64,000 nt of DNA from Squalus acanthias (Eukaryota). This document shows positions 1 through 41,841 of this stretch, piece by piece. The translations under genes and the position numbers were made by a program. The notes under the pieces were generated by a model. The model made no database searches. It had not been told where the DNA came from and was given only the letters and a program-made list of their open reading frames with translations. How positions within the stretch are numbered: position 1 is the stretch's first letter; each line of letters opens with the position of its first letter. Location: NCBI GenBank assembly GCA_030390025.1, contig CM059446.1, forward strand, positions 38,316,001-38,380,000. The letters are read 5' to 3'.

Positions 1-803
1 GCTGAAAAGTGCTTTTCATAATGCAAATTTCATTTCTAAAAACATTATAATGTGGCAAGAGCTTCAAAAGAACTTGTCCAAAAAATAACTCTGTAGCGAG
101 TGTGTGTGGAGGGGACGGGGGTTGGGGGGGGAGGGGAACGACTTTGAGACTGGGGCAAATTGTTGGTTTCTATGACTTTTCTTCAGCAGTTGCACTGGAT
201 AAAGCGTTCCAAATGAGGGATGGAATCAGCCAGCCCGGCCCAGGGAGCAATCCTGGAAACAGGGGGAATCAGTTAAAATCAGGCTTGAAGAACAGTATTA
301 CAACACGTAGCATCAACAAAACCAGCCCAGAAGAATCAACAAGATCGGCCTAATGAAATGATAAGAAAGTAGGTACAATTAGTAAGAGAGAGGAGGAAGG
401 TGGTGGATTCACAACAATTGGCCAAGGGGAGTGAGAGTAGGTGAATGATGAAGAAGTGGGAGGAATCAGTGATATTGGTCCACATGAATGAAGAGAAAAG
501 AGGTTTAATGCCTGGATGAGTGCAGCTCCAACAACACTCAAGAAGCTCAACACCATCCAGGACAAAGCAGGCCGCTTGATTGGCACCCCATCCACCACTT
601 TAAACATTCACTCCCTCCACCACCGGCGTACCGTGGCTGCAGTGTGCACCATCTACAAGATGCACTGCAGCAACTCGCCAAGGCTTCTTCGACAGCACCT
701 CCAAAACCCGCGACCTCTACCACCTAGAAGGACAAGGGCAGCAGGCGCATGGGAACACCATCACCTCCAAGTTCCCCTCCAAGTCACACACCATTCTGAC
801 TTA

Positions 804-915
804 AATGAGAAGTCGCAAAACACCAGGTTATAGTCCAACAGTTTTATTTAAAATTACGAGCTTTCGGAGCTGCTGCCCCTTCGTCAGGTAGAGGTACCGT
901 CAGGCATCTCCGCAT
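804..915. mobile_element. Miniature Penelope-like insertion (family 1): inverted 3' end plus forward tail fragment
   Basis: 12-bp TSD CATTCTGACTTA at 792-803 and 916-927. 804-890 matches 20266-20352. GGCATCTCCGCAT (903-915) matches the tail GGCATCTCCACAT at 23137-23149. Confidence 0.85.
854..890 (-). ncRNA. Minimal hammerhead ribozyme (PLE-type)
   Basis: Minus strand reads UAC-CUGACGA-A-GGGGC-AGCA-GCUCC-GAAA-GC-UC-GUAA: core CUGANGA/GAAA, 5-bp stem II, AGCU palindromic stem III. Confidence 0.75.
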
Positions 916-3115
916 CATTCTGACTTAGAAATATATCGCTGTTCCTTCATCATCACTGGGTCAAAATCCTGGAACTCCCTCCCTAACAACACCTTGGGAG
1001 TACCTTCACCACAAGGACTGCAGCGGTTCAAGAAGGCAACTCACCACCACCTTCTCAAGGGTAATTCGGGATGGGCAATAAATGCTGGCCTTGCCAGCAA
1101 CGCCCACATCCCAGGAACGAATAAAAAAAAATGGAAATTGCTCCAGGGAAGAGATATAGAAACATATGGGATCAGAGGGATCCAAGGGATTGAAAATGGA
1201 CTAAATCAACACGATTACCCAGATGAATGAGCAGAAACTGGGTGGAATCAGTAACACTGACTTGTATGAGTGATGAAGGACTGGGTGGCATCAGAACCAA
1301 CAAAGACAAATGGAACCGGGTGGAATCAGCAAGACTGCCCAGGAAAACAATGTGGAAGTTAGTCAAGTCACTGAGATTAGCCCAGATCAGTAATGTGGAA
1401 CCAACTGAAATCACAGAGACCGGCCAAGAGGAATAGATGTACAAGTGGGTCATCTTGCTAATTTCACCTACTTTCACACTCACATGGGCCAAATTCCACC
1501 TTCTTTCATATCATTCTCTCTCAATCAGAGGGACTGTTCCAGGAGAATATTTAGAAGCGGATAGGCCAGAAAGATTTTTATGCAAATAGATGGAATCAGT
1601 GAACATGTTTCTTATTAAAGAAAACCTCAAATATGCAAGCAGCTCATTATTAATCTTCCTCAGCCATGAGCTCCTAGCTCACACCCTACACTGAACATTT
1701 AATTGCACTCAAATTGTGCTATGAAATATTTGCAACAATACATTAATTCCTTTGTTAAAATAGAAGACAGGGGAGTTTCCTATGAACACATTGTGCATGT
1801 TATTACTATTAACAGTATGATTTCAACATTCAAGTGTGAATTAACATCCTGGATGTACCCATCACAACACATGGTATGGGTATTCATTAGTACATTATAT
1901 CCCCTCTATTCTTCAAGGTGTTAAAGGTATCTGCTCAGCTAACTCGAACTGGTGTATTGTTATTATTTATTCACAACCCGCTAATAATAGACTCTGTTAG
2001 ACACTTCCCTTGATGGTATCCTTCAGACCTTCTGATTTATATTTCCTCCCTGATGCTTTCTGTACACTATGGAACTGTTTCCAGTGTGTGCACAATTGTT
2101 CAGGAGTCACTTTCATGACTTTTAACAACCTGGCAAGGACCGTCTCCGATCTCAGAGGAAGAGCTGTACAAGTCAACAATGGTGAAGTGCCTTTCTGTCC
2201 TGAAAGGATGGGCTGTGTTTTACGGTTTCACAAATGTTTGTCGAGTTGCTGGTTTCTGCGACTTTCTCTCGGCCGTTGCACTGGATAAAGCTTTCCCCGC
2301 TGTTTGAATCAACACTTTACTTCAAGCATTGACCTCAGGCCAATAAATTGTGTTTTTTTTTGCTATGTCTGTCTGAAACCAAAGGCTTCATATTCATAAT
2401 ACGACAATTTAATAATGATCTATTTTCCCTTTCATCACAAAGAATGTTGCATATACTTTTTTTTGTTTTTAGATCCAATGGCAGTACTGAACTCTTCGAT
2501 AACTGGGAGTTGTGCGGTCATTCAGTGTGCTAAAGGCATTCATATTCATTAGGTTTATACTTGCACAGAGCTTAGCATTATTTTTACAGCAGTATTCAGG
2601 GTGGTTTATTGCGCTATCATTTATTTAGAGTAAGTTACACAGCAAATATATTCACAATATAAGTGCTGGATGAATTGGAGTCATATAAATTGATTGATCA
2701 GTAGTGTTCTCTGGCTGCACTTACTCATTCCATTCTGATGTGTGTACCATCCTTTAGAGACTTGGTCTGTGCTCCATCCTGTAGTACATAGTGGTTTAGA
2801 CCAATAGCACCTTGAAAAGTGGTTTTGTCTGCACAGTTTACCTAGGCAGGGCAGTGTGCTTGCTTCATTCTGTGCGGATAATTGTAACAATTATTACTTG
2901 TGCTGTTCCCGATTGTTCCCTTTGGTGCTTAGTTTGTTATGTGTATGCTGTTTATTGGTGAAATGTGACTTTTCTGATTTAAGGCTTGCTCTCTGTGCCT
3001 GTACCTGGAATGCTGCTGTTTTGAAAGTTCAATCTACAATCGGCAAGTTTTCCAGGATTATGTCTGATTCACCTTAGCTGCAGTTCAGGATGTCGTTGTT
3101 TTTGTATCCTCAGTC

Positions 3116-6216: not shown

Positions 6217-6476
6217 ACTGACACTTTTATGGCTCACACTGTGCCGACACTTGCAAAGTTTATTCCAGTTTAAAGAGCGACAAGTATTGCCTTGATGTCC
6301 AGGAAGTTCTGGGGAGGGGGAAATTAATCCAAAGGGACAAATTTGTATTACGGTAGGTTTTGTAACTTAGATTTATGACAGAAAAAGAAACTTAAATGTA
6401 TATGTAAAAGATGCATCGCTGTATTTGTACAAAATTCCTCTGTGTTCTATTTCAATACATTTATTAACTCATTTAA

Positions 6477-16686: not shown

Positions 16687-17007
16687 GGTGTAGATCTTGA
16701 CTTTGTGCTATAGTGTAACATAGAAACATAGAAAAATAGGAGCAGGAGTAGGCCATTCGGCCCTTCGAGCCTGCTCCACCAATCAATATGATCATGGCTG
16801 ATCCTCTATCTCAATACCATATTCCCGCTCTCTCCCCATACTCCTTGACGCTGGGTGATAGCGAGTCGGCAGCCCATTTTATATCTCTCCCAATTTTTAT
16901 TTCCGCTGAAGTCAACGGAAATAAAAATCGGGCCAGATGTAAAACGGGCTGCCAACTCGCTGTTGCCCGTTTTACACTATCTATCGCACAAAGTCAAGAT
17001 CTAGCCC
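16687..17007. mobile_element. Fold-back MITE (3-bp TSD ACT) interrupted by a CR1 fragment
   Basis: TAGATCTTGACTTTGTGC pairs with GCACAAAGTCAAGATCTA. Inner arms CCAATTTTTATTTCCG and CGGAAATAAAAATCGG. ACT at 16684-16686 and 17008-17010. Confidence 0.8.
16717..16848 (-). mobile_element. CR1/HER1-type LINE 3' end
   Basis: (AACATAGA)n tail, then GGAGCAGGAGTAGGCCATTCGGCCCTTCGAGCCTGCTCC and ATCATGGCTGATC. Matches the 33090-33180 terminus in reverse. Confidence 0.85.
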
Positions 17008-17490: not shown

Positions 17491-19739
17491 CGTATTAATG
17501 TCTGAGGATGTTTTCCCTCCAGCCAGTATCTTTCTCTATCCTCCATTAACCAGTAGGAAATCTGAGATATTTGGGCATGTTGATTAGTGCAGACCTGGGA
17601 CAAGTAGTGTGCAGGATCTTCCATAACTGATCTGACCAATTAATATTTGCTTGATAGTTCCAGAAAATTAATTGATTAGAGGTTTTATTTGAGATTGAAA
17701 GAGGTTTCATACTAAATCCAGCAGTGGATTGGCGCTGCCTAATTCCAGTATTTATTTTGCACTATATTAAATAAGGCCTCTTATTCAGTGGTTCCATCCT
17801 AGCTGTCTGCTAACCAAATGAAATTTGCTTAGAAATGTGAAATTATAGGGCTGGTTTTCTTCTCAGGACATAGTGGCGATGGACCTTGAAGTGCACATGT
17901 GCACCTTGTCAAAAGCACAAGATTCCGTGGCTCTCTGGTGCAGGAGCAGATTTAAAGGGCAGCCGCTCTGCCTTAAAGGGGCAGTGTCAATTCCAGCAGT
18001 GCAAGAGGCTGCATCTGCTGCCAGAGGCTGGGATGGACTGCCCCTTTTACCAAGCGAATCCTGAAGGTAATGCTGAGGCAGTTGCTCCACTTTCTGCCTC
18101 AACTTCACCTTCTGGAGTCTCTTGGTAAAAGGGACAGTTCTACCAAGCCTCTGGCAGCTGGCAACTGCTGACACCAGAATTGCCGGGGCCTGGCCTCTTT
18201 CTGAGCCCCTGCATTATGCATTTGAGTCGGAGTGGCTGAGTGGCATGGAGAGTCACCCTGAGAGCCAGCTGCCTGACCTCTGCTGACTCCGGTCATGCCC
18301 TGCTGCTGGCCAATATCTCTGCATATGCTGTGATCCATGTGGGAGCAGACCACAGGACTGCAATGAGGTAACTGAAGCTCCACATCAGCGTGTTGTCCAA
18401 CCATTTGCCCAGCATGGTGTGTCCAGACAGGACTGATTTATGGACATTGGAGCATCTCTACAGCATCAGTAAGCACATCCCCAAGAGAACATACAGCTGT
18501 GCCGAGGACCTTTTTGAAGGGGGCAGATGGTCCAGGAGATGCCCCGTGCACTCTCTCAAATGTCTCCATGAATTCATGGTGATCAAAAAGCAGCATTCTT
18601 TTGTTAGCCAGTACTGTATGGCACCAATGCCAAACCCCTATAACTGAGAATGGCCTGGAGCAGTCCTTTTGATCAACTCCATTCTGCTCCTTTGCTGCCA
18701 GTGGCACTTACTCCTCGTCACTCATGCTGTGTGTTTCACCTGGTACTCCTTGCTCTCGATCTAACTCTAAATCTGAATCCCCATAGTGTGGATGTTCCTG
18801 TGTTGATGTTTGTTGCTCTGTGTTCTGAGGTGGTAGGATCAGCACCCTTGAGCATGCAGAATTCCATTCCTTGGGGACATTTAGCATAGTAACAACAGGA
18901 ACAAACCTTAAACTTACATCGGTAACACACTCCTTGAAATAAATGTCAAGACGTGTTAAATCTGTGATTGATGGAGTGCCCGAGTGTGTGAAAGATTAGG
19001 GAGGGGAAGAAAAAAATCTGCAATGATTGGTACTAGACTGGAGATGTATAAGGCATCTTGTATGACCCCCTCCAATGGCTCCACTGATTTTAGGCCAATG
19101 ATTTGAAGGTTAAAAGGGCATCAGATTGGGAAGGTAGACCATTGGTGGTTGCTCACCTCTCCCTTCTATTATAGGCTTCTTTTTCCTGCAAGTAGGACCA
19201 GATTGCTAAAGTGCTGCATGTTTGAAGAGTCCTGACACTGTTATGCAAGCGGTCACCATGTAGCCAACAACCTGATTCTGTGAGATACAACCTTCTAGTT
19301 GCCTGTTGGTGGAAACATTATCATGCCTGTTTCCTTGGAATCTGGAAGGTGTGCATTACAGGAATATGGACAGCCTTGCGATTATGAGAAAAAGACAAAA
19401 TAAAATGACTCCACAAACTAATGCGAACAGACAGAAAAAGGGTTATTAAAGTTACCAGCAATTCTTTTAACTGTTTCTTCTTTGAAGGGCACGGATGGTG
19501 AGTCTTTCATTAGGTTAGTACAGGAGAAAGGGCATATAAACTTGACCTGATCAGAAAGACTAGCTGTTAATGTTGAGGAAACAATTGTGCTTCATTTAAA
19601 CTACATATGGATGTGGAGAGGTTAAGTTTCTAAATATAGATAAACCGAGATTAGAGGGTGAAGATAGCAAAACAGAAAGTAATTATGGGATAAGCACAGA
19701 GAGTTAACTACCTAAGAAAAGACAAAGATTAGAATGAAC

Positions 19740-19900: not shown

Positions 19901-20014
19901 GTTTTACATATCAAAGGAGAGTTAGAGATTAAGAAACCAAAGTGATAACCTTGGGGAAGTCACAAAATCTGTCTTGAGTTAATAAACAGGGTAGAGAACG
20001 AGATCGGGGCAGGT

Positions 20015-20266
20015 AGAAAGAAAGAGCTTGCATTTATATAGCTCCTTTCATGACCTCAGGATGTCCCAAAGCGCTTTACAGCCAATTAAGTACTTTTGAA
20101 GTGTAATCATTGTTTAATGTACGAAATGCGGCAACCAATTTGCACACAGCAAGATCCCACAAACAGCAATGTGATAATGACCAGATCATTTGTTTTTAGT
20201 GATGTTGATTGAGGGATAAATATTGGCCAGGACACTGGGGATAACTCCTCTGCTCTTCTTCAAATA
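20015..20266 (-). mobile_element. DeuSINE, 3' part (split by the Penelope insertion)
   Basis: Reverse-complement SINE tail and core up to CTTCTTCAAATA. Continues in register at 23155. Confidence 0.88.
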
Positions 20267-20314
20267 TGAGAAGTCGCACAACACCAGGTTATAGTCCAAC
20301 AGATTTATTTAATT

Positions 20315-20353
20315 TTACAAGCTTTCGGAGCAGTTCGCTCCTTCGTCAGGTAA
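20315..20353 (-). ncRNA. Minimal hammerhead ribozyme (left arm copy)
   Basis: Reverse complement of 23025-23063. Confidence 0.78.
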
Positions 20354-20574
20354 GTTAGCAGTGAGAGAATCTCCCAGAATTCACAATTTGAACACAGACA
20401 AAATCTATTCACATCTTTCCCTACATCAAAGAGCACAGCCAAGACAATGAGATGTGTCCCAGGGGGTCCAACGTGTCAAACCACCTGCTGGCTGCATATC
20501 CTGTCAATTTGTGTAGGTTCTTGTGTTAGTCTTTTTAAAAAAAAACACCTGGGAAGACCGGCCATGATGTCAAG

Positions 20575-21609
20575 TCACGTTCTGTATCGTGACATGAACC
20601 CGATATCGCGATTGAGGCCATCCTCATGAGTGCGGAACTTGGCTATCAGTTTCTGCTCTATGATTTTGCGCTGTCGTGTATCTCGAAGGCTGCCTTGGAG
20701 AACGCTTACCCGCAGATCCGAGGCTGAATGCCCCTGGCTGCTGAAGTGTTCCCCGACTGGGAGGCAACCCTCCTGCCTGGCGATTGTTGCGCGGTGTCCG
20801 TTCATACGTTGTCTCAGTGTCTGCATGGTCTCGCCGATGTACCATGCTCTGGAGCATCCTTTACTGCAACGTATCAGGTAGACAACGTTGGCCGAGTCAC
20901 ATGAGTATGTACCGTGTACCTGGTGGGTAGTGTCCTCACGTGTGATGATGGTATCTCTGTCCATGATTTGGCATGTCTTGCAGAGGTTGCCATGGCAGGG
21001 TTGTGTGGTGTCTTGGTTGCTGTTCTCCTGAAAGATGGGTAATCTGCTGCGAACGATGGTACTTTTGAGGTTAGGCGGCTGCTTGAAGGCGAGTAGTGGA
21101 GGCGTGGGGATGGCCTTAGCAAGGTGTTCGTCATCATCGATGACATGTTGAAGGCTGCGAAGAACATGGCATAGTTTTTCCGCTCCGGGGAAGTACTGGA
21201 CGACGTAGGGTACTCTGTTGGTTGTGTCCCGTGTTCGTCTTCTGAGGAGGTCTATGCGGTTTTTCGCTGTGGCCCGTCGGAACTGTCGATCGACGAGTCG
21301 AGCGTCATATCCCGTTCTTACGAGGGCGTCTTTCAGTGTCCGTAGGTGTCCATCGCGTTCCACCTCGTCTGAACAGATCCTGTGTATTCGCAGGGCTTGT
21401 CCATAGGGGATGGCTTCTTTAACGTGGTTAGGGTGGAAGCTGGAGAAGTGGAGCATCGTGAGGTTGTCCGTGGGCTTGCGGTAGAGTGAAGTGCTGAGGC
21501 GTCCGTCTTTGATGGAGATTCGTGTGTCCAAGAATGAAACCGATTCTGAGGAGTAGTCCATGGTGAATTTGATGGTGGGATGGAACCTGTTGATGCTATC
21601 GTGTAGTCC
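20575..21609 (-). CDS. Inverted, 5'-truncated PLE ORF: RT C-terminal part + GIY-YIG endonuclease
   Basis: Open frame (within ORF 20575-21633) identical to the plus copy except KFT/KLT and EVE/EEE. Lacks the YIDD motif. Confidence 0.85.
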   Translation of the reverse strand, partial: GLHDSINRFHPTIKFTMDYSSESVSFLDTRISIKDGRLSTSLYRKPTDNLTMLHFSSFHPNHVKEAIPYGQALRIHRICSDEVERDGHLRTLKDALVRTGYDARLVDRQFRRATAKNRIDLLRRRTRDTTNRVPYVVQYFPGAEKLCHVLRSLQHVIDDDEHLAKAIPTPPLLAFKQPPNLKSTIVRSRLPIFQENSNQDTTQPCHGNLCKTCQIMDRDTIITREDTTHQVHGTYSCDSANVVYLIRCSKGCSRAWYIGETMQTLRQRMNGHRATIARQEGCLPVGEHFSSQGHSASDLRVSVLQGSLRDTRQRKIIEQKLIAKFRTHEDGLNRDIGFMSRYRT

Positions 21610-21614
21610 AAATC

Positions 21615-22802
21615 GTGGGGACCAAATTCGCACCCCAATACGCCAACATCTTCATGCACAAGTTCGAGCAAGACTTCTTCGCTGCACAGGACCTCCAACC
21701 AACGCTATACACCAGATACATCGACGACATCTTCTTCCTTTGGACCCACGGCGAAGGATCACTGAAAGGACTACACGATAGCATCAACAGGTTCCATCCC
21801 ACCATCAAACTCACCATGGACTACTCCTCAGAATCGGTTTCATTCTTGGACACACGAATCTCCATCAAAGACGGACGCCTCAGCACTTCACTCTACCGCA
21901 AGCCCACGGACAACCTCACGATGCTCCACTTCTCCAGCTTCCACCCTAACCACGTTAAAGAAGCCATCCCCTATGGACAAGCCCTGCGAATACACAGGAT
22001 CTGCTCAGACGAGGAGGAACGTGATGGACACCTACGGACACTGAAAGACGCCCTCGTAAGAACGGGATATGACGCTCGACTCGTCGATCGACAGTTCCGA
22101 CGGGCCACAGCAAAAAACCGCATAGACCTCCTCAGAAGACGAACACGGGACACAACCAACAGAGTACCCTACGTCGTCCAGTACTTCCCCGGAGCGGAAA
22201 AACTATGCCATGTTCTTCGCAGCCTTCAACATGTCATCGATGATGACGAACACCTTGCTAAGGCCATCCCCACGCCTCCACTACTCGCCTTCAAGCAGCC
22301 GCCTAACCTCAAAAGTACCATCGTTCGCAGCAGATTACCCATCTTTCAGGAGAACAGCAACCAAGACACCACACAACCCTGCCATGGCAACCTCTGCAAG
22401 ACATGCCAAATCATGGACAGAGATACCATCATCACACGTGAGGACACTACCCACCAGGTACACGGTACATACTCATGTGACTCGGCCAACGTTGTCTACC
22501 TGATACGTTGCAGTAAAGGATGCTCCAGAGCATGGTACATCGGCGAGACCATGCAGACACTGAGACAACGTATGAACGGACACCGCGCAACAATCGCCAG
22601 GCAGGAGGGTTGCCTCCCAGTCGGGGAACACTTCAGCAGCCAGGGGCATTCAGCCTCGGATCTGCGGGTAAGCGTTCTCCAAGGCAGCCTTCGAGATACA
22701 CGACAGCGCAAAATCATAGAGCAGAAACTGATAGCCAAGTTCCGCACTCATGAGGATGGCCTCAATCGCGATATCGGGTTCATGTCACGATACAGAACGT
22801 GA
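21615..22802 (+). CDS. 5'-truncated PLE ORF: RT (motifs B-E, thumb) + Cys linker + GIY-YIG endonuclease
   Basis: 395 aa: GTKFAPQYANIFM, RYIDDIF, FLD, YRKPT, linker CHGNLCKTC (Neptune-type), VVYLIRC...WYIGET...LRQRMNGH, IEQKLI, GLN. No stops, but the N-terminal RT motifs are absent. Confidence 0.92.
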   Translation: MGTKFAPQYANIFMHKFEQDFFAAQDLQPTLYTRYIDDIFFLWTHGEGSLKGLHDSINRFHPTIKLTMDYSSESVSFLDTRISIKDGRLSTSLYRKPTDNLTMLHFSSFHPNHVKEAIPYGQALRIHRICSDEEERDGHLRTLKDALVRTGYDARLVDRQFRRATAKNRIDLLRRRTRDTTNRVPYVVQYFPGAEKLCHVLRSLQHVIDDDEHLAKAIPTPPLLAFKQPPNLKSTIVRSRLPIFQENSNQDTTQPCHGNLCKTCQIMDRDTIITREDTTHQVHGTYSCDSANVVYLIRCSKGCSRAWYIGETMQTLRQRMNGHRATIARQEGCLPVGEHFSSQGHSASDLRVSVLQGSLRDTRQRKIIEQKLIAKFRTHEDGLNRDIGFMSRYRT

Positions 22803-23024
22803 CTTGACATCATGGCCGGTCTTCCCAGGTGTTTTTTTTTTAAAAAGACTAACACAAGAACCTACACAAATTGACAGGATATGCAGCCAGCAGGTCGTTT
22901 GACACGTTGGACCCCCTGGGACACATCTCATTGTCTTGGCTGTGCTCTTTGATGTAGGGAAAGATGTGAATAGATTTTGTCTGTGTTCAAATTGTGAATT
23001 CTGGGAGATTCTCTCACTGCTAAC

Positions 23025-23063
23025 TTACCTGACGAAGGAGCGAACTGCTCCGAAAGCTTGTAA
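23025..23063 (+). ncRNA. Minimal hammerhead ribozyme in the PLE 3' region
   Basis: UUAC-CUGACGA-A-GGAGC-GAACU-GCUCC-GAAA-GC-UU-GUAA: stem I UUAC/GUAA, perfect 5-bp stem II, AGCU palindrome. Predicted cut after 23059. AATAAA follows at 23069-23074. Confidence 0.8.
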
Positions 23064-23154
23064 AATTAAATAAATCTGTTGGACTATAACCTGGTGTTGT
23101 GCGACTTCTCATTTTTGTCCACCCCAGTCCAACGCCGGCATCTCCACATCATGA

Positions 23155-23348
23155 CTTCTTCAAATAGTGCTACGGTATCTTTTACGTCCACCTGACAGGG
23201 CAAACAGGGACTCGGTTCAACGTATCATCTGAAAGACGGCACCTCCAGCAGTGCAGCACTCCCTCAGTACTGCACTGCAGTGTCAGCCTGAAATTTGTGC
23301 TCAAGTCTTTGGAGTGGGACTTGAACCCACAACCTTCTGACTCAGAGG
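23155..23348 (-). mobile_element. DeuSINE, 5' part (continuation of 20015-20266)
   Basis: CAAATAGTGC...GGGACTTGAACCCACAACCTTCTGACTCAGAGG, the reverse-complement core and tRNA head. Confidence 0.88.
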
Positions 23349-24559
23349 AATTACAAAACAAAAATAATTCAAAGTCCCCGAAGCAAAGGGGGAGAGAGGA
23401 AAATCTGGGAGAAGTATATGAATTTGCTAAAATAGGGTTTGAATGATATTTTAGATGCAAGAACGATTCTAGAAATATGAAAAATATTCTTCAATATCAC
23501 AATAGTTAAGGCACAGTTAGAGAGCAATTCAGAGTTCTAAAAGTGATGGTAAAATTAAAGAATAAAAAATAGCTTACATATTAAATAAAGATGCTATAAT
23601 CATATTCATTAGAAAGGACATTGGTAACTTTGTGCACTAATATTCGAACTGTCTATTTTCAAGGCAGAGATAGCAGAGTTATGTGATATGTTTCTGGGCA
23701 TGGCTCAGATGCCATACATTTGAGGGTGCTGAAGAAGAACGGGGAAGAAATTTATGGGGTACTATTTCAGTAGATAATTCAATGGACACTGCTGAAGTCC
23801 TGAGGAAATGGACGCAAACATAGTGGAGCTGATTTATTCCGATGGGAATCCAGAGGAACATCTTGGAAAAAGGCCAAGAGCAGGATATACCAGCTCCTAA
23901 CCTAACCTGGGAATTCCTGCTCAACCTTGTAAGGGGCAGAGCCTCTGCCCACCCTTTATAATGCTGAGGGGGCAATGGCAGGAATGTGATCTCTCTACAC
24001 TGGGAGTTCCCACTTATCTGCCCATATGGGACCCTGTGTATGCCTGGAGGTTGGTACGTCCTGGGAGATGAGGCATACCATCCTTCAGAAGTCCACAACT
24101 CGGGATGGGGGTGGGGGGTGGTGAGGAAGCAGTCGGGGGTGGGGGGGGGGTGTCAGCGAAGCAGCCTGGACCCCTGAAATTGAGAAATTTTAAGCAAAAA
24201 GTTTTAGTATCAACCCTCTTTGTAAGGGGGTCATAGAGGGGTAAAAATGGTGCCTTCGGTGTAGGGTACAGGGTATCCCCTTCAGATGGCAGCAGCGTGG
24301 GGTAGGTGGGAATCTGACATGAACTCATGGGGTCACAGGTATCCTCTAGATCCTATGCTTATCAGGCTTCCTCCCACTGACCCCGCACAATCCAGCTGGA
24401 TCAGCACAGTCGGGCACCAGCGGGCACTATCCCAGCATAATAGCCAGAATCTCATCGCATACATTTTCGGGACAAAAGGACAACAAAACAAAACCAGGAA
24501 ACTACAGGCCCACTTCACTAATGGGTAAAATTGAATCCTCTCTGAGGGCTAAGCTGGAG

Positions 24560-24650
24560 AAGTTTCCGTATAGCAATAACTTGATAAGAAACAGAAAACA
24601 TGGATTTAGAAGGGAAAGATCATACATGATCAACCTCCTTGCTACAAATG
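24560..24650 (+). mobile_element. Decayed CR1 RT fragment
   Basis: LIRNRKHGFRRERSYMINLL resembles the CR1 motif LIxxSQHGFxKGRSCLTNL. Confidence 0.55.
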
Positions 24651-24677
24651 AAGCATTTAGTGGAGCTCTCTATGGTG

Positions 24678-25181
24678 AGGACCTCACTGTCCTCGGCCTC
24701 GTGCATTGTTCCACGGAAGCTCAGCGTAAGCTCGAGGAACAGCACCTCATCTTTCGTTTAGGCACTTTACAGCCTTCCGGACTCAATATCGAGTTCAACA
24801 ATTTCAGATCATAACCCCGGCCCCCACCATATATATATACATTTTATCCACCATTTTGGTTCGTGCCTTTTTCCTTTTTTTCTCTCTCTCCCCCTACGAC
24901 AGCCGTCTCTCATTCTGCCAGCATTTCACACTTCAACTTTTGTTTCTTAACCTGTCCCATTACCATCTCGTCTTGCCTTGAGCATCTCTTAATGTCTCTA
25001 CTTACCATAGTTATCTCCCCCACCCCGCCTCCCCCCAGCCTCCCCCTTGCATTTTTATCTGTTTCATTTCCTGCTCTTTTCTCAGTTCTGACGAAGGGTT
25101 TCGACCTGAAACGTTAACTCTGTTTCTCTCTCCACGGATGTTGCCTGGCCTGCTGAGTTTTTCCAGCGTTTTCTGTTGTTG
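24678..25181 (+). mobile_element. Penelope-like fragment (family 2), 5'-truncated, tail-less
   Basis: VLGLVHCSTEAQRKLEEQHLIFRLGTLQPSGLNIEFNNF is near-identical to the C-termini at 28325 and 30410. Ends at TTCTGTTGTT. Candidate 11-bp TSD TCTC(T/C)ATGGTG at 24667-24677 and 25182-25192. Confidence 0.85.
25084..25119 (+). ncRNA. Minimal hammerhead ribozyme
   Basis: AGUU-CUGACGA-A-GGGU-UUCG-ACCU-GAAA-CG-UU-AACU: UUCG-capped stem II, ACGU palindrome. Confidence 0.78.
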
Positions 25182-25699
25182 TCTCCATGGTGTAGTTCAG
25201 TGGTCCTCAACCATATGAGTTGTGACCCTCCAGGGGGTTCATGGGCACCCGTCAAGGGTTTACCACCACTCTACTGCCTGATGCACCCGTCATGCCAGTC
25301 CTGGCTCCACCTTGTGCCTAACTCTGTTGCTTCACATCAGGAGTTGAGTGCTGTAGACAGGAATTCCTGACGTTATGATCGTTTTTGCAATATCAGGTCA
25401 ATTCTTCCACAGGTGGCAGAAGGCTCCTTCTTGGAGCAAAGCAACAGCACTGGGTAGTAGCTGGAATCAGGACCGGCAAGATGCAGTGAATGAGGGAGGG
25501 ACAGTGCCTGCGTGAACATGGGACAGGGCAAGAAAAAGTGCCTCCGTGAATAAGGAATGGGTCAAAGAAAATAGTATCTCTGTGAAAGGGGAAGGACTTT
25601 TAGTATTTAGTTAGTCATGGATACATTAAGGTTCTGAGGTAAGGCAATTGCCAAAATTCTAATTTCACAAAAAGAGGGTCCTAACATGCAAACAGGTTA

Positions 25700-26260
25700 A
25701 AAATACTGTTGTAGTTTATCGGAACTTTCAAAAACTTTTGATGAATTCCACATTCTAATTTATCTAAAAGCCACAGGAATGCAGAGTAGAATGGGGGAAT
25801 AGGATAAGTGGTTAGTAGAAGAAGAGGAAACCAAGATGGTTTGTGACAATGTGATGTCAGTCTGGGAGAAGGTATTGCGAAGAATTCCGTGGAGTTGGAG
25901 TTCTATTGCTTCTAATCTAATGTACATGAATGGTCTGGATACCGAAACTGAATGTAAGCTTGTAAAATTTCTGGTGACATTGTAATGGTGAGAGGAGTAG
26001 AACAAAGGATGCAGCTAAGATTTGCGCAAAGCTTTAGAATGGTTATGTCACTGGACAGGCAAAGGGAAAATGAAATGGAACACTGTTAAATGTAAAGCAT
26101 TTCACACAAGCTGAAAAATTGTGCGTGATATTTATACAGTGAATGCAACGGAATTAGCACAGGGAGACTTGGAAAAGGACTTGGGAAAAGGACTTGGGAA
26201 TGAGCAGGCATTGTGCTAAAGCTACTGGAATGCTGGGATATACAAACATACGAAAATGTT
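25700..26260 (+). mobile_element. Decayed CR1 RT fragment
   Basis: GTAGTTTATCGGAACTTTCAAAAACTTTTGATGAATTCCAC resembles VVYxDFQKAFDKVPH. Later EKDLG-like and A.GMLG.-like segments. Confidence 0.5.
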
Positions 26261-26299
26261 GGATGGAAAAACAGCTTTTGGTTGCACATAGTTGTGATG

Positions 26300-26860
26300 C
26301 CTTATGCGTCACAATACAAACACTCCCCACCCACCTGGAGCCATGTAATCTACTAGGAGAGGCAAAAAAACAGATAGAAACCCAAGTCAATTAGGGAAAA
26401 CAATGGACAATTCCTCTCCGATTGAAATTAGTCCAGGAGATCACATTGGGCCTGATTTATGTTACAGGATACCTACAGCTTGTACGAGATGATCTCAGCC
26501 AGAAAGAGGTCCAGCTCTGTGTTGACGGAATACCGTGAATCAGCATTCACCACACAAGACGGCAGCTTATTTCACAGGTCCACTATTCTCTGCAAAAGGA
26601 ATAACTACCTAACATCCAACCTAGTTCTGCCCTTACATAACTTGTAAGCATGACCCCTGGTCCTCCCTAACCCATTCAGTTGAAATAATTGGTCTATATA
26701 AACACAATCCAGTTCATTATTTTATAAACCTCAATCAAATCATCCCCAAGTCTACACTTCTCTAAAGTATAGAGACACAACTCGTTGAGCCTATCTGGGT
26801 AACTAAGGCTTTTTAAACTGGGAAACAATCTTGTGTCCCTCCTCTGCACCCTTTCCAATG
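26300..26860 (-). mobile_element. CR1-type LINE 3' fragment
   Basis: Reversed ORF2 end (ACCAGGGGTCATGCTTACAAGTTATGTAAGGGCAGAACTAGGTTGGATGTTAGG). Similar to 32115-32170. Confidence 0.65.
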
Positions 26861-27379
26861 CGTAAATATAATAGTAGGATAAAAGTCTTGAAAGTTGATA
26901 CTAATGCTGTCAATATGTCTCAGCTATCAGTCTGAGAACAATAGCAGCAGAATCAGTTCCAGTCATGCACCACTGTTTATACTGCCTGGCTGGAACTGAA
27001 ATTCTCCTGCCCAGGAGAGAGCTCTTTACAGGTATGGTTGCACACACTAGCTCTTCCAACCGCTAAAATGTAAATACTTAGAGAGTGTGGATGTCAGCGT
27101 TTACACTCACTAAACATTTAAATCGACTCCAGGTGGGTTTAAAGAGTTCTCAGGCCCAAAGGACCACGCCCCACGCAGACTTTTTAAATCCAGATCGACA
27201 TCGCACTGGAATTTGATTCCATACAATGTCAAACTCAAGAGATGTGAGACTACTTCCTACCGAGGATCTCACACTGACGCTCTCTGGAATGTGGTTGGAC
27301 CCTACTTCAGATTTATACTGCAACCTTAGCGTTGATGCAAAGTGAAAAGCACTTTGCAGTGACACGAAAGGTGCAGTAT

Positions 27380-27890
27380 AAATATGCTCTACGGCTTTAC
27401 AATGAACTGGTCAGTGCACATTTGAAGTGCTGTGTTCAGTTCTGGATACCATGCCACAGAAAAGGTATTTAGTGCATGCATTGGAAAGAGCACAGAGGAG
27501 AGCAACAAGACTAATTCAAATTGTAACTGGAATGAACTATGAGAAAAGGTGAGAGAAGCTCAAGTTCTATAGTCGAGTATGAAGGCATTTATTGGGGACC
27601 TTGAAATTAAATACAATATTAAATGGTAGAAATTAAATCCAGAATATTGCTCAAAGTAAGCCATGAAAATAAGAGTGGAGGACAGAAATGTAATTAGTGA
27701 AAAGTAAATTTAAAACACATATTAGAAAGAACATATTTACTGAAAGAGTGATGTTTTGAATAATGCATCAGCTGAGTAGTAAACATGAAAAACATTCAGG
27801 TAATTCCAAAGTTAGTTAGATTATAATTAAGAGAGTTAAGGTATAAGAGGGACAAGCTTCAGTGAAGTAAAAGGCATTTTCTTATATATT
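27380..27890 (+). mobile_element. Decayed CR1 ORF2 3' part
   Basis: LVSAHLKCCVQFWIP and LERAQRRATRLI-like segments, homologous to the ORF at 32559. Confidence 0.65.
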
Positions 27891-28009
27891 CTTAATGTGA
27901 CCAGTTTATGCTGTATCTCAATAACATCATAAATATAATCAAAGGACCATGCCCCACACTCATTAGTATAATTAATGTATAGTATTTATTTTATTGAGAT
28001 AGTTACCAT

Positions 28010-28064
28010 GCTGGATGCTTGGTCAATTGAAATTCAAGACTGAAATCGACAGATTTTTATTAGG
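28010..28064 (+). mobile_element. CR1/HER1 3' fragment, left of the Penelope insertion
   Basis: TTCAAGACTGAAATCGACAGATTTTT (FKTEIDRF). Continues at 30709. Confidence 0.7.
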
Positions 28065-28128
28065 AATAACAACAGAAAATGCTGGAAACACTCTGCAGGC
28101 CAGGCAGCATCCGTGGAGAGAGAAACAG

Positions 28129-28165
28129 AGTTAACGTTTCAGGTCTGGGACCCTTCATCAGAACT
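28129..28165 (-). ncRNA. Minimal hammerhead ribozyme (left arm)
   Basis: Minus strand AGUU-CUGAUGA-A-GGGUC-CCA-GACCU-GAAA-CG-UU-AACU. Confidence 0.78.
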
Positions 28166-28324
28166 GGAAAAAGCTGGAGATGTAACAGATATTAAGCAGG
28201 TGCAGAGACAGGGAGGGGAGGAAGGAATTGAAGGAACATACTGTGCTTAGATAAGAGGCAGGAAAGATAAAATGTTGCAAATGGGGATGGCAAAATCATA
28301 CAGCATGAAAAATAGGGGCAGGGG

Positions 28325-29874
28325 TTATAGTTTGAAATTGTTGAACTCAATGTTGAGTCCAGAAGGCTGTAAAGTGCCTAATCGAAAGATGAGGTGCTGT
28401 TCCTCGAGCTTACGTTGAGCTTCATTGGAACAATGTAAGAGGCCGAGGACAGAGATCAGAGTGGGAGTGAGGTGGAGAATTAAAGTGACAGGCGACCGGA
28501 AGCTCAGGGTCACCCTTATAGACTGAACGGAGGTGTTCCGCAAAGCGGTCGCCCAATCTGCGTTTGGTCTCCCCAATGTAGAGGAGACCGCATCGTGAGC
28601 AGCGAATACAGTATACTAAATTACAAGAAGTACAAGTAAATCGCTGTTTCACCTGGAAGGGGTGTTTGGGGCCCTGGACAGTGGGAAGGGAGGAGGTAAA
28701 AGGGCAGGTGTTGCATCTCCTGCGCTTGCACGGGAAGCTGCCGGGCGAAGGGGAAGGGCTGATTGAGGAGTGGACCAGTGTGTCGTGGAGGTAGCGGTCC
28801 CTTCGGAATGCTGAAAGGGGAGATGAGGGGAAGATGCGTTTGGTGGTGGGATCACGTTGGAGGTGGCGGAAATGGCGGAGGATGATCCGTTGAATGTGGA
28901 GGCTGGTGGGGTGAAAGGTGAGGACAAGGGGAACCCTATCGTGGTTCTAGGAGAGAGGAGAAGGGGTGAGAGCAGAAGTGCGGGAAATGGAACGGACACG
29001 GTCAAGGGCCGTGTCAACCACAGTAGATGGGAATCCTCGGTTGAGGAAAAAGGAAGACATGTCAGAAGCACTGGTATGGAAGGTGGCATCGTCAGAACAG
29101 ACGCGGTGGAGACAGAGAAACTGGGAGAATGGAATAGAGTCCTTACAGGAGGCGGGGTTGGAGGAAGTGTAGTCCAGGTAGCTGTGGGAGTCAGTAGGCT
29201 TGGAGTGGACGTTTGTCGAAAACCGATCGCCAGAAATGGAGACGGAGAAGTCAAGGAAGGGAAGAGAAGAGTCGAATATGGACCATGTGAAGGTGAGGGA
29301 AGGGTGGAAATTAGAAGTAAAGTGAATGAACTTATCTAGTTCAGGGCGAGAGCAGGAAACGGCACCGATACAGTCATCGATGTACCGGAAAAAGAGGTGA
29401 GGGAGGGGACCTGAGTAGGACTGGAACAAAGAATGTTCCACATATCCCATGAAAAGGCAGGCACAGCTAGGGCCCATGCAGGTTCCCATAGCAACACCTT
29501 TAATTTGGAGGAAGTGAGTGGAGTCAGAGGTGAAGTTCTTCAATGTGAGAACAAGTTCAGCCAGGTTGACGAGGCTCGTGGTGGATTGGAACTTGTTGGG
29601 CCTCTGTTCAAAGAAGAAGCGGAGCGCCCTCAGGCCGTCCTGGTGGGGGATGGAGGTGTAGAGGGATTGGACATCCATAGTTAAAAGGAGACAGTTGGGG
29701 CCAGGAAACTGGAAACTGTTAAAGTGGCGGAGGGTGTCGGAAGAGCCGCGAATGTAGGTGGGAATAGACTGGACAAGGGGAGAAAAAATAGAGTCGAGAT
29801 AGGAAGAGATAAGTTCCGTGGGGCAAGAACAGACTGAAACGATGGGTCTACCAGGGCAGTCCTGTTTCTGGATC
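28325..29874 (-). pseudogene. Frameshifted PLE RT + GIY-YIG ORF
   Basis: MDVQSLYTSIP, KGVAMG, RYIDDC, FLD (ORF 28947-29678), LVYCIRCSRCGLLYIGETKRRLGDRFAEH (28422-28652) and the GLN C-terminus (28325-28576) lie in different frames. Confidence 0.9.
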
Positions 29875-30410
29875 CCACCACCAAACGCATCTTCCCCTCA
29901 CCTCCCCTTTCAGCATTCTGAAGGGACCGCTCTCTCCGCGACACCCTGGTCCACTCCTCAATCACCCCTAACAGCCCTTCCCCTTTGCCCGGCACCTTCC
30001 CGTGCAAGCGCAGGAGATGCAACACCTGCCCTTTTACCTCCTCCCTTCCCACTGTCCAGGGCTCCAAAGACCCCTTCCAGGTGAAACAATGATTTACTTG
30101 TACTTCTTGTAATTTAGTAAACTGTATTCGCTGCTCACGATGCGGTCTCCTCTACATTGGGGAGACCAAATGCAGATTGGGCGACCGCTTTGCGGAACAC
30201 CTCCATTCAGTCCGTAAGGGTGACCCTGAGCTTCCGGTCGCCTGTTACTTAAATTCTCCACCTCACTCCCACTCTGATTTCTCTGTCCTCGGCCTCTTAC
30301 ATTGTTCCAATGAAGCTCAACGTAAGCTCGAGGAACAGCACCTCATCTTTCGATTAGGCACTTTACAGCCTTCTGGACTCAACATTGAGTTCAACAATTT
30401 CAAACTATAA
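29871..30410 (+). pseudogene. Inverted-arm PLE GIY-YIG fragment with premature stops
   Basis: GTFPCKRRRCNTCP linker and YIGET are present. TGA (~30090) and TAA (~30118) replace CGA and TAC of the other arm. Confidence 0.85.
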
Positions 30411-30569
30411 CCCCTGCCCCTATTTTTCATGCTGTATGATTTTGCCATTCCCATTTGCAACATTTTATCTTTCCTGCCTCTTATCTAAGCACAGTATATT
30501 CCTTCAATTCTTTCCTCCCCTCCCTGTCTCTGCACCTGTTTAATATCTGTTACATCTCCAGCTTTTTCC

Positions 30570-30606
30570 AGTTCTGATGAAGGGTCCCAGACCTGAAACG
30601 TTAGCT
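30570..30606 (+). ncRNA. Minimal hammerhead ribozyme (right arm)
   Basis: AGUU-CUGAUGA-A-GGGUC-CCA-GACCU-GAAA-CG-UU-AGCU. Predicted cut after 30602. Confidence 0.78.
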
Positions 30607-30708
30607 CTGTTTCTCTCTCCACGGATGCTGCCTGGCCTGCTGAGTGTTTCCAGCGTTTTCTGTTGTTATTTCAGATTTCCAGCATCTGCAGTATTTTGCT
30701 ATTGTATT

Positions 30709-30848
30709 AGATTTTTATTAGGTATGTGTATCAAGGGATATGGATCAAAGGCGGGTAAATAAAGTGGAGTTACAAATCAGCCATGATCTAATTGACTGGA
30801 GGAACAGGCTCGAGGGGCTGAATGTCCTACTCCTGTTCCTATGTTTCT
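30709..30848 (+). mobile_element. CR1/HER1 3' terminus, right of the Penelope insertion
   Basis: ATCAGCCATGATCT...GGCTCGAGGGGCTGAATG...CCTACTCCTGTTCCTATGTT. Confidence 0.8.
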
Positions 30849-31984
30849 AAGTGCTAGAAATTTATATTTTTTCCCCCCATACAGCTTATAATCCTGAGCG
30901 ATTTCTCTTTACACTTTACCTCAGTTAACTCATCTTTCTAAAATCTGCCCCAGAATGGAATAAATGTGGGGGCCCTTGATTTTGTGCTAACTTTTTCCCT
31001 TTCTATGTGTCCCTTAAACCCTATCATGTTATGGTGGCTATCCCCGAGGTGCTCGCCCACATTTAGCTCATCTACCTGATCTAAAACATTATTCATAACT
31101 AGATGCAGAAGCTCTTCTCCCCTTTAAGATATACAAACATATGACTTGAGAAGGGAGTCCTGCAAGATCAGGGTCTTCTGGCGAGAAGGTTCTAATCATC
31201 TGCAAATTTCTTTGGGGGAGGATCTTTGGTTTGCTTCCAGGTCCCTCACTGACTGTCCAGTTGGAGGAAGACCATAGCACCATGTTTCACTGGGTGTCCC
31301 TGTTCTAGGCTGCCCAGTGAACGTCCTCCCAGGAAAATGAGGCGAAAGGCCAGGAGTGCTTCCTCTCATCTGATCAGCATACCTGCGATGGACTACTGCA
31401 GCTCCATGCCCAGCTCTGCTCTGCTCCTCCAACACGAGAATCCCTCGAAATTGCCAGGAAATGTAAAAGGTTACAGAGAACTGGCAAAACAGGTCCTGCA
31501 ATCCTTTTTCCTGACCTTTGTGACTGGGAAAATTGTTGCCCTCCAGGGGCAAGGGTGATGAAAAGGAAGGGAATGTACCATTTAAAAACAAGAACAAAAG
31601 CTGCCAATTAGGAATCAACAATAAAAATGTAGCTAACAATGAAACAAGTAGCAAGGAAATCAGAAACTAATTAAATCACTTAAAATATATTTTAATAATA
31701 TTTTCAGTTGTCCTGTTTTATCAGTAACCTTTGGAAAACAGTACTAAAATAAGGTATAAAACTTAATAAAATGGGTGAGATGCCTATGGAAATGTGATCT
31801 GCACCAGCAGCTCACCCAAATAATATTAGTGAGGCTTGAGGCCCAATTTCAGGCTGGCCATGGCCTCCTGGTTGGGGCATTCGCTCCTTGTGCAGTGCTC
31901 ATTTTGGGCTCGAAAATAGACTTATTGGAATTTCCACCACTTAAGCTGTCAGAATGCCCCAGTGCCATTCTGCGCAAGATAGGC

Positions 31985-33300
31985 TAAAAGAGTTGGGTCT
32001 CTACACTTTAGAGAAGCGTAGACTTGGGGTGATCTGATTGAGGTTTATAAGATGATGAAGGGAATAGATTGTGTTCCAGTTGACAGTTTGTTCCAATTAA
32101 ATAGGTTAGGGGGGACCAGGGGTCATAATTTTAAGTTGTGTAAGGTCAGATCTAGGTTAGATGTCAGGAGGTGGTTCTTTTCTCAGAGAATAGAGGACCT
32201 CTGGATCAGGCGGCCGTCTCGTATGGTGAATGTTGATTCGCTGAGTTCCTTCCAGCGAGAGTTGGACCTGTTTCTGGTTGGGCTTACAAAAGGTAGGTAC
32301 TGCAGGGAATTCAGGGCCAGAGTGATGTCCTGGACTAGTTTTGATCAACTAGGTGGGTCGGAGAGGAATTTCCCAGATTTTTTTCCCCTAAATTGGCCTG
32401 GGTTTTTTTTTACCTGGTATTTCGCCTCTCCCAGGAGATCAAAATGCTACAGTTCAGAGGGACCTGGGGGTCCTTGTGTATGAAACACAAAAAGTTAGCA
32501 TGCAGGTACAGCAAGTAATCAAAAAGGCAAATGGAATGTTGGCCTTTATTGCAAGGGGTTGGAGTATAAAAGCAGGGAAGTCCTGCTACAACTGTACAGG
32601 GTATTGGTGAGACCACACCTTGAGTACTGCGTACAGTTTTGGTCTCCTTATTTAAGGAAGGATATACTTGCATTGGAGGCAGCTCAGAGACGATTCACTA
32701 AGTTAATTCCAGAGATGAGGGGGTTGACTTATGAGGAAAGGTTGAGCAGGTTGGGCCTATACTCATTGGAATTTAGAAGAATGAGAGGTGATCTTATTGA
32801 AACATATAAGATACTGAGGGGGCTCGATAAGGTAGATGCAGAGAGAATGTTCCCCTCAGGGGGAAATCTAGAACTCGGGGGCATAGTTTCAGAATAAAGG
32901 GTTGCCCTTTTAGAACTAAGATGAGGAGGAATTTCTTCTCTCAGAGGGTCGTAAATCTGTGGAATTCTCTGCCCCAGAGAGCTGTGGAGGCTGGGTCATT
33001 AAATACATTTAAGGTGGAGATAGACAGATTTTTGCAAGATAAGGGAGTGAAGGGTTATGGGGTGCGGGTAGGGAAGTGGCTTTGAACCCAAGATCAGCCA
33101 TGATCTTATTGAATGGCATTGCAGGCTCAAGGGGCCAAGTGGCCTATTCCTGCTCCTATTTCTTATGTTCTTGTGTTCTTACCACATGGTTTTGAATGGG
33201 GTGGAGAGTGTATATTGTGATACACAGGTATCACAATTGTGTGGGGCAGGCTGAATGGACCAAAGGGTCTTTATCTGTCTGTTATTGTTCGTATGTTCAT
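31985..33300 (+). mobile_element. Older CR1 3' fragment (31985-32440 and 33181-33300) hosting a younger CR1
   Basis: ORF 32052 (TRGHNFKLCKVRSRLDVRRWFFSQR). The 3' UTR resumes at 33181 and ends TGTTCGTATGTTC. Confidence 0.7.
32441..33180 (+). mobile_element. Younger CR1/HER1-type LINE 3' fragment
   Basis: ORF 32559-32897 LVRPHLEYCVQFWSPYLRKDILALE...RGDLIETYKI. Terminus CCTGCTCCTATTTCTTATGTTCTTGTGTTCTT. Confidence 0.9.
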
Positions 33301-41552: not shown

Positions 41553-41841
41553 NNNNNNNNNNNNNNNNNNNNNNNNNNNNNNNNNNNNNNNNNNNNNNNN
41601 NNNNNNNNNNNNNNNNNNNNNNNNNNNNNNNNNNNNNNNNNNNNNNNNNNNNNNNNNNNNNNNNNNNNNNNNNNNNNNNNNNNNNNNNNNNNNNNNNNNN
41701 NNNNNNNNNNNNNNNNNNNNNNNNNNNNNNNNNNNNNNNNNNNNNNNNNNNNNNNNNNNNNNNNNNNNNNNNNNNNNNNNNNNNNNNNNNNNNNNNNNNN
41801 NNNNNNNNNNNNNNNNNNNNNNNNNNNNNNNNNNNNNNNNN
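41553..41841. other. Assembly gap (289 N)
   Basis: Run of N. Confidence 1.

What the first reader, a model, noticed from the sequence alone, without database searches (positions are those of the whole stretch)
28051..30722. Second palindromic Penelope (different family) with opposite arm asymmetry and a GATC microhomology join
Seen: same layout (14-bp TSD, tail-less inverted copy, tailed forward copy), but here the tail-less copy is the longer one (1.8 kb versus 0.84 kb). At 20267-23154 the tailed copy is the longer one. The copies meet at GATC (29871-29874), which reads as both the minus copy (GATCCAGAAACAGGACTGC) and the plus copy (GATCCCACC, cf. 28850-28853). Inference: the two arms are extended independently to arbitrary lengths and then end-joined by microhomology. 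This argues against one arm being a snap-back copy of the other.
Basis: partly seen in the sequence, partly recalled or inferred. Interest (0 to 1): 0.72.

Follow-up and report, generated by a model that had tools for sequence, protein, structure and literature searches.

The report
Head-to-head Penelope retroelement insertion
Two cut-short copies of a Penelope-type jumping gene sit head to head in one landing site; the layout is known, but which copy carries the short end piece suggests that both were written outward from the two cut DNA ends, not by one copy folding back on itself as proposed in print.

Summary
An exact 14-bp target duplication encloses a tail-less minus arm (1,810 nt) and a tailed plus arm (838 nt) of one Penelope-like element (RT plus GIY-YIG, Neptune-type linker). 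Contigs of other family copies show that GATC belongs to both arms: a 4-nt microhomology (1.2% by chance). The arms share a rare family variant, so they come from one source lineage. The layout itself is published.

Snap-back also leaves microhomology, and 4 of 5 resolved junctions carry filler instead. What argues against snap-back is the tail on the shorter arm. I found a third pair in the window whose short arm is tail only, a solo tail-less copy with a probable duplication, and three pairs in two outside loci. All 6 duplication-bounded pairs have the tail at exactly one end.

Best reading (0.7): twin target-primed reverse transcription from both 3' overhangs, at the two published start sites, then end-joining. 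I did not find this link in print (7 searches). This scan noted similar two-armed insertions on other DNA. The sample is small, and later central deletion is not excluded.

The parts
28051..28064 (.). left target-site duplication, 14 bp, AT-rich
   Evidence: exact match to 30709-30722; only 2 copies in the window
28065..29874 (-). long arm: 5'-truncated Penelope-like copy, tail-less 3' end at 28065
28950..29873 (-). reverse transcriptase part of the ORF, starts inside the conserved P-K-I-H-K motif; in-frame stop at 28947-28949
   Evidence: Pfam RVT_1 E 5.4e-8, above cut-off; 62-63% identical to a Chiloscyllium punctatum protein
28422..28946 (-). linker with C-X4-C-X2-C and GIY-YIG endonuclease part; frameshift near 28455
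   Evidence: Pfam GIY-YIG E 2.3e-4, 21.8 bits, just under the 22.6 cut-off; translation
28850..28853 (-). GATC inside the long arm, the position at which the short arm begins
   Evidence: arm alignment
29871..29874 (.). junction: 4-nt microhomology GATC shared by both arms
   Evidence: loose ends of family contigs on both sides; chance 1.2%
29871..30670 (+). short arm body (endonuclease region and 3' untranslated part), 96.7% identical to 28853-28065
30574..30598 (+). hammerhead-like core (CTGATGA, 5-bp stem II, GAAA); mirror copy at 28161-28137 on the minus strand
   Evidence: pattern scan (core pattern recalled); no Rfam hammerhead hit
30671..30708 (+). 38-nt tail, on the short arm only
   Evidence: many family contigs end near 30700-30706 with AT-rich flanks
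30709..30722 (.). right target-site duplication
28012..28064 (+). left part of the host repeat that was split by the insertion; it goes on at 30723-30856
   Evidence: flanks align across one copy of the duplication to a related repeat near 32985-33160 (68.6% over 194 columns; left piece score 44, maximum 34 in 988 controls)
20255..23166 (.). comparator E1: 12-bp duplication, tail-less minus arm 20267-21609, about 6 nt filler, tailed plus arm about 21616-23154 (longer; tail 42 nt)
792..927 (.). comparator E3 (new): 12-bp duplication, tail-less minus arm 804-890, 12-nt filler, plus arm 903-918 made only of the tail end
24667..25192 (+). comparator E4: solo tail-less arm of a sister subfamily (about 24681-25181) with a probable 11-bp duplication (10 of 11 match)

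Best explanation
One insertion event of a Penelope-like element, made by twin target-primed reverse transcription. (1) The GIY-YIG endonuclease nicks both strands 14 bp apart and leaves two 3' ends. Inferred from the duplication; nicking and extension of both strands is shown in vitro for a lizard element (PMC11167929). (2) Each 3' end primes its own cDNA. One starts at the outer start site and gives the tailed arm, the other about 38 nt further in and gives the tail-less arm. The two start sites at the tail borders are shown in that paper; their use one per end is my inference. (3) The cDNAs stop at different places. Inferred. (4) Their free 3' ends are joined: here by pairing at GATC, after which each cDNA is the template for the other's second strand; at other loci by end-joining that leaves filler copied from nearby sequence. 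The junction sequences are shown, the pathway is inferred. Both cDNAs probably come from one RNA held by a protein dimer (about 55:45 over two RNAs from one source locus). The product is a dead, 5'-truncated, decaying copy with no sign of a function.
For: One exact duplication bounds both arms, and the flanks rejoin as one host repeat. The short arm holds 38 nt that the long arm lacks, so it cannot be a plain copy of it. In E3 the short arm is tail only and shares nothing with the long arm (15 of 16 match to the E1 tail; 3 of 2,982 random windows reach that, tails not masked). E4 is a solo tail-less arm with a probable duplication, so a tail-less end can be a primary product. The same pattern occurs in two outside loci: L084 435-961 (tailed arm 153 nt, tail-less 321 nt) and L083 181-2260 (tailed 908, tail-less 971), the second from a clade without the cysteine linker. 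All 6 duplication-bounded pairs have the tail at exactly one end (p = 0.016 against independent choice at each end). Both arms carry T at 30484/28251 where 98.7-99.9% of aligned family depth has C, and T at 30421/28314 where 70-98% has C. At 6 of 6 visible mismatch sites the plus arm has a private letter, as expected from decay after insertion.
Against: The sample is 6 pairs, picked by hand from one window and 2 of 85 fetched loci; one pair has a complex middle and was left out of the length count. E1 has the tailed arm longer, which a simple leading-and-trailing picture on one RNA does not predict. Shared rare variants fit snap-back or later gene conversion just as well. Only 6 of the 26 arm mismatches could be set against the family (109 rows cut). 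Real fold-back does occur at junctions: a 105-nt palindrome at L083 1234-1338 and a hairpin at 51633-51657. The arms differ by 3.3%, so there was time for a later deletion. The in vitro work is on a Poseidon element and saw no difference in start site between the strands.
Confidence: 0.7

Rival explanations
1. Self-priming (snap-back). A cDNA or an antisense template folds back and copies itself into a hairpin. The endonuclease then trims the tail from one end as the intermediate is resolved. This joins the self-priming proposal of PMC3846280 with the 'EN-mediated resolution' of the tail in PMC8557442.
For: It gives the same head-to-head layout and the same GATC overlap (geometry). It explains identical arms at birth and the shared rare variants. 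Palindromes at junctions exist (L083 1234-1338; window 51633-51657). It is the published reading.
Against: It needs an extra trimming step, on the long arm in 4 pairs and on the short arm in 1. It must also make a tail-only arm (E3) and a solo tail-less copy (E4). Reverse transcription starts at both tail borders in vitro, so no trimming is needed to make a tail-less end.
Confidence: 0.15
2. The present arm lengths and the GATC join are secondary. The insertion was longer, of either origin, and a later microhomology-mediated deletion removed the centre of the palindrome.
For: Arms are 3.3% diverged, so the locus is not young. Microhomology-mediated deletions in Penelope copies are reported (PMC3846280). 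This is the only one of 5 junctions with clean microhomology.
Against: It does not explain the one-sided tail. About 790 bp of palindrome with a 1-kb spacer survived. E1, with arms 99.5% identical, is already asymmetric. The junction could not be compared in other individuals or species.
Confidence: 0.12
3. Two separate insertions in opposite orientation at one spot, or an assembly artefact.
For: The family is very abundant. No contig bridging the junction was among the rows shown.
Against: One duplication bounds both outer ends and the sequence shows none at the junction. The arms share rare variants. The arms differ at 26 sites and 2 indels, unlike a mis-assembled fold-back. The pattern recurs three times in the window and in outside loci.
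Confidence: 0.03

Closest known systems
Penelope-like element insertions with an inverted 5'-truncated copy, a one-sided 30-40-nt tail and a target duplication (Arkhipova et al. 2013, PMC3846280, passages read; Craig et al. 2021, PMC8557442, passages read)
   Same: Head-to-head layout, inverted terminal repeats, tail at one end only, short target duplication, RT with C-terminal GIY-YIG.
   Different: Here both arms are 5'-truncated with no direct tandem, and the tail sits on the much shorter arm. Those papers explain the inversion by self-priming on an antisense template and the tail by endonuclease resolution.
PAc (Poseidon of Anolis carolinensis) in vitro (Frangieh et al. 2024, PMC11167929; abstract, main text and part of the methods read, 2 of 4 parts)
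   Same: Nicks and extends both strands, prefers AT-rich DNA, starts at two sites that bracket the tail, predicted dimer. These are the ingredients of my model.
   Different: A different clade. In the parts read the paper does not link these results to inverted insertions; the word 'inverted' occurs once, for a blocking nucleotide. Its supplementary figures could not be seen; 3 text files gave no hit.
L1 twin priming and the proposed dual priming (Meyer et al. 2010, PMC2837659, passages read; the original twin-priming paper recalled only)
   Same: Both strand nicks prime cDNA, one duplication bounds two inverted pieces, and the inner junction has microhomology or is end-joined.
   Different: L1 arms cover different parts of the RNA, the inner primer anneals at a variable site, and there is a poly(A) tail. 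Here both arms start at two fixed sites about 40 nt apart and overlap by about 790 nt. E3 (tail-only arm) is the one case that looks like L1 twin priming.

Membership tests
Endonuclease-bearing Penelope-like elements | RT followed by a C-terminal GIY-YIG endonuclease in one ORF | tested here: met
   RVT_1 above cut-off, GIY-YIG E 2.3e-4 just under cut-off; one frame apart from a stop and a frameshift; matches run on through both domains of longer relatives
Endonuclease-bearing Penelope-like elements | [quoted passage not shown] | tested here: met
   V-Y-C-I-R-C-S-R-C-G-L-L-Y-I-G-E-T, then E-H-L and C-H-F, read by eye
Endonuclease-bearing Penelope-like elements | Terminal repeats (pseudo-LTRs), direct or inverted | tested here: met
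   inverted; no direct tandem here
Endonuclease-bearing Penelope-like elements | 30-40-nt tail at one end and a short target duplication | tested here: met
   38-nt tail, 14-bp duplication
Endonuclease-bearing Penelope-like elements | Hammerhead ribozyme motif in the terminal repeat | tested here: inconclusive
   core pattern with stem II found only in the 6 element ends that reach that far; Rfam gave no hammerhead match at E up to 5 in 20000-31200; cutting not testable
Neptune or Nematis clade | C-X2-5-C-x-x-C linker between RT and endonuclease (absent in Penelope/Poseidon) | tested here: met
   C-K-R-R-R-C-N-T-C in both arms; definition
Neptune clade | Placement in an RT tree with named reference families | not tested
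L1-type twin priming product | One duplication around two inverted pieces of the same element | tested here: met
L1-type twin priming product | The two pieces cover different parts of the RNA, with a poly(A) tail | tested here: not met
   arms overlap by about 790 nt and there is no poly(A); it works like twin priming but is not an L1 product
Snap-back (fold-back) product | The shorter arm is wholly contained in the longer arm | tested here: not met
   the short arm has 38 nt absent from the long arm; the same holds for E3, L084 and L083 181-2260; it is met only by E1

The most novel reading that the evidence does not exclude
Penelope-like elements insert by coupled twin priming as a normal step, across clades. 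A protein dimer holds one RNA, and its two subunits start at the two fixed sites that bracket the tail, one on each cut target strand. The tail-less cDNA leads; the tailed cDNA trails and either stops in the tail (E3) or displaces the leader. This one step would explain the one-sided tail, the head-to-head repeats and second-strand synthesis (the cDNAs prime on each other), and would replace the antisense self-priming model.
Probability: 0.4. Interest if true: 0.72.

Novelty: new member of a known kind. Interest (0 to 1): 0.46.

Why it matters
How Penelope-like elements build their inverted repeats and one-sided tail is named as an open question (PMC8557442, and passages). The published guess is self-priming. 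Tail side against arm length is a simple test that needs only an assembly, and this genome appears to hold very many copies. If twin priming holds, these elements would use both cut strands as primers as a rule, where L1 does so only as a variant, and each insertion would end in a join between two cDNA ends. The locus itself is a dead copy of a known layout.

Tried and rejected
No whole genome is held, so the genome-wide table could not be made. A DNA pattern from the element's 3' end found 0 matches in metagenome, genome and viral contigs; the protein alignment found 79, 6 and 0 loci. Of 46 inverted pairs of 30 nt or more in the 85 loci, 11 had a nearby direct repeat of 11 or more. I kept 3 as element pairs with a true duplication and dropped 8 that I read as local tandem or palindromic repeats or as parts of the kept pairs. 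L001, L005 and L009 hold inverted element pieces without a duplication and were not counted. Test for two different templates: no arm difference was seen to be a common family variant, but only 6 of 26 sites were visible, so this is undecided. Mutation bias between arms (13 against 6 C/G-to-T/A changes) is not significant (p = 0.17). Three other head-to-head type joints in family contigs (28911>30152, 29085>30595, 29734>29941) have overlaps of 0, 1 and 0 nt, but their short sides are only 24-28 nt and 15 of 625 joints were shown, so I give them no weight. One contig of run X8 covers tail, duplication and flank (30671-30810, 12 differences); it may be an orthologous insertion or a parallel one in the host repeat, and I cannot tell. 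No RNA holder listed. No paralogue in the window spans the E3 site convincingly. No duplication was found for 51530-51685. A paper on de novo structural mutations in Chlamydomonas (PMC9977147, passages) and a retrozyme preprint (10.64898/2026.07.22.740005, passages) said nothing on inverted insertions in the passages shown. Look-ups of earlier findings by this sequence and by two longer word sets were empty.

Full report
1. The observation. It is real as written. An exact 14-bp direct repeat lies at 28051-28064 and 30709-30722 and occurs nowhere else in the window. Inside are a minus-strand arm (28065-29874, 1,810 nt) and a plus-strand arm (29871-30708, 838 nt). They align at 96.7% over 789 paired bases, with 26 mismatches (19 transitions, 9 at CpG) and indels of 9 and 2 nt. 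The plus arm ends in 38 extra bases (30671-30708) that match the end of another copy at 51531-51568 at 36 of 38. The flanks are two halves of one older repeat: they align across a single copy of the duplication to a related repeat near 33 kb (left piece score 44 against a maximum of 34 in 988 controls). That host repeat looks like the 3' end of a CR1-type LINE (recalled, not tested).

2. What the element is. The long arm encodes a reverse transcriptase (Pfam RVT_1, E 5.4e-8) followed by a GIY-YIG domain (E 2.3e-4, just under the cut-off), broken by one stop and one frameshift. It has the CCHH pattern and a C-X4-C-X2-C linker, which PMC8557442 gives for the Neptune and Nematis clades. The closest named protein is from the shark Chiloscyllium punctatum at 63% (177 hits, 120 listed), so the host is probably a cartilaginous fish (inference). 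A hammerhead-like core sits in both ends, though Rfam did not score it. The element at 20267-23154 is a different family (30% identity over 169 residues).

3. The junction. No genome was held, so I laid contigs of four public runs on 28860-31200. Family copies go on behind 29874 with letters that restore the conserved L-P-K-I motif of the relatives and differ from the window. Before 29871 they go on as the long arm does at 28854, again unlike the window. GATC therefore belongs to both arms and the overlap is exactly 4 nt. Random head-to-head joins of this element give 4 or more in 1.2% of 200,000 trials. The same one search shows that both arms carry T at 30484/28251, where 98.7-99.9% of aligned depth has C, and T at 30421/28314, where 70-98% has C. 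At the 6 mismatch sites that were listed (of 26; 109 rows were cut) the plus arm has the private letter. So the arms come from one source lineage and then decayed.

4. What does and does not tell the models apart. A cDNA end that folds back on its own strand pairs at a short inverted match and leaves the same overlap as two cDNA ends that pair with each other (one search shows the geometry; inference). Microhomology is therefore neutral. In a fold-back the copy is the shorter arm and can hold nothing that the first arm lacks. Here the shorter arm holds the tail. That is the real argument.

5. More cases. E1 (20255-23166): 12-bp duplication, arms 99.5% identical, tailed arm longer, about 6 nt of filler (no family consensus was at hand, so its junction limits are inferred from the reading frame). 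Its empty site aligns across the duplication to 4 of 4 copies of the host repeat in the window. Its short arm shares nothing with its long arm. E4 (about 24681-25181): a solo tail-less arm with a probable duplication (10 of 11). Outside the window, 85 loci were fetched; 3 of 46 inverted pairs were clear duplication-bounded element pairs. L084 435-961: tailed arm 153 nt, tail-less arm 321 nt, 25 nt of filler made of repeats of the arm end. L083 181-2260: tailed arm 908 nt, tail-less arm 971 nt, about 180 nt of filler that includes direct and inverted copies of the plus-arm start; this element lacks the cysteine linker. L083 6055-6982: one tail-less end and one tailed end, complex middle, not used for lengths. 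These are animal-type elements in records filed as bacterial assemblies. Tally: 6 of 6 pairs have the tail at exactly one end (p = 0.016); the tail-less arm is longer in 4 of 5 (p = 0.19); 1 of 5 junctions has clean microhomology and 4 have filler. The fillers of E1 and E3 repeat nearby sequence (p = 0.047 and 0.014), which resembles polymerase-theta end joining (recalled).

6. Mechanism. Best reading, 0.7: a staggered cut leaves two 3' ends; each primes a cDNA, one from the outer and one from the inner start site; the cDNAs stop at different points and are joined. At this locus they pair at GATC and can each serve as template for the other's second strand. Shown here: layout, duplication, overlap, tail side, common source. 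Shown in print for a Poseidon element: both strands nicked and extended, two start sites at the tail borders, a predicted dimer (PMC11167929). Inferred: that one event uses both sites, one per end, probably on one RNA. Against: small hand-picked sample; E1 has the tailed arm longer; shared variants fit snap-back too; true fold-back palindromes occur at some junctions (L083 1234-1338; window 51633-51657). Rivals: self-priming plus tail trimming (0.15), later central deletion that reset lengths and made the GATC join (0.12), separate insertions or artefact (0.03).

7. What is known. The layout is published: an inverted 5'-truncated copy, a one-sided 30-40-nt tail and a duplication (PMC3846280; PMC8557442; passages read). 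The first explains head-to-head repeats by self-priming on an antisense template and says that other models are not excluded. The second ascribes the tail to endonuclease resolution and lists the origin of these repeats as unresolved. Priming from both nicks is known for L1 as twin priming, and dual priming by two RNAs was proposed (PMC2837659, passages). In 7 paper searches I found no paper that applies twin priming to Penelope-like elements or tabulates tail side against arm length. The library lacks most subscription papers, including older reviews of this group, and the supplementary figures of PMC11167929 could not be seen. Earlier notes of this scan describe similar two-armed insertions on other DNA; they are unchecked and are not support.

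8. Verdict. Real, a new member of a known kind. The locus is a dead copy. Its value is as a clean data point, with E3 and E4, against plain snap-back and for a testable twin-priming model. Interest 0.46.

Noticed in passing
window 792-927: Third head-to-head insertion (E1-like family) whose tailed arm is only the last 16 nt of the tail, with a 12-nt filler that repeats the end of the other arm.
   Followed up: yes
window 24667-25192: Solo tail-less copy of a sister subfamily with a different 3' untranslated middle and a probable 11-bp duplication.
   Followed up: partly
window 51530-51685: Tailed minus-strand end (115 nt) that meets a 79%-identical plus-strand piece in a 12-bp perfect hairpin at the hammerhead-like motif; no duplication found.
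   Followed up: partly
joint 29734>29941: A head-to-head type joint with 5 letters between, seen in two organisms' runs at depth 467 and 107 against about 14 for single-copy flank. It may be an inverted junction that was itself amplified; the short side is only 24 nt.
   Followed up: no
run X8 record 31 (30671-30810): A contig from another organism covers tail, duplication and right flank with 12 differences: either the same insertion, older than the species split, or a parallel insertion into the same site of the host repeat.
   Followed up: no
window 20015-20266 and 23155-23348; copies at 3116-3546, 6476-6929, 7981-8425, 52285-52681: E1 sits inside a roughly 430-nt dispersed repeat with a weak tRNA-like part (Rfam tRNA 20 bits, below threshold); probably a SINE.
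   Followed up: partly
window 4027-4539: Tandem repeat with a 27-nt unit.
   Followed up: no
window 16860-16961 and 18017-18158: Two short imperfect palindromes (102 and 142 nt) unrelated to the elements studied.
   Followed up: no
window 26335-26796 and 31977-32452: Old inverted repeat pair at 73% identity on either side of the insertion.
   Followed up: no
window 41553-41841: Run of 289 N (assembly gap or masked stretch).
   Followed up: no
L083 6055-6982: Short non-coding element ends with one tailed and one tail-less end in a 12-bp duplication; about 310 nt of unrelated sequence with an A-rich end lies between two plus-strand pieces.
   Followed up: partly
L084 2721-3217: A 450-nt near-perfect palindrome (97.8%) directly upstream of a truncated element; it does not match the element's 3' end.
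   Followed up: no
L080-L085: Six contigs filed under bacterial genome assemblies carry animal-type Penelope-like elements, probably host DNA in the bins.
   Followed up: no
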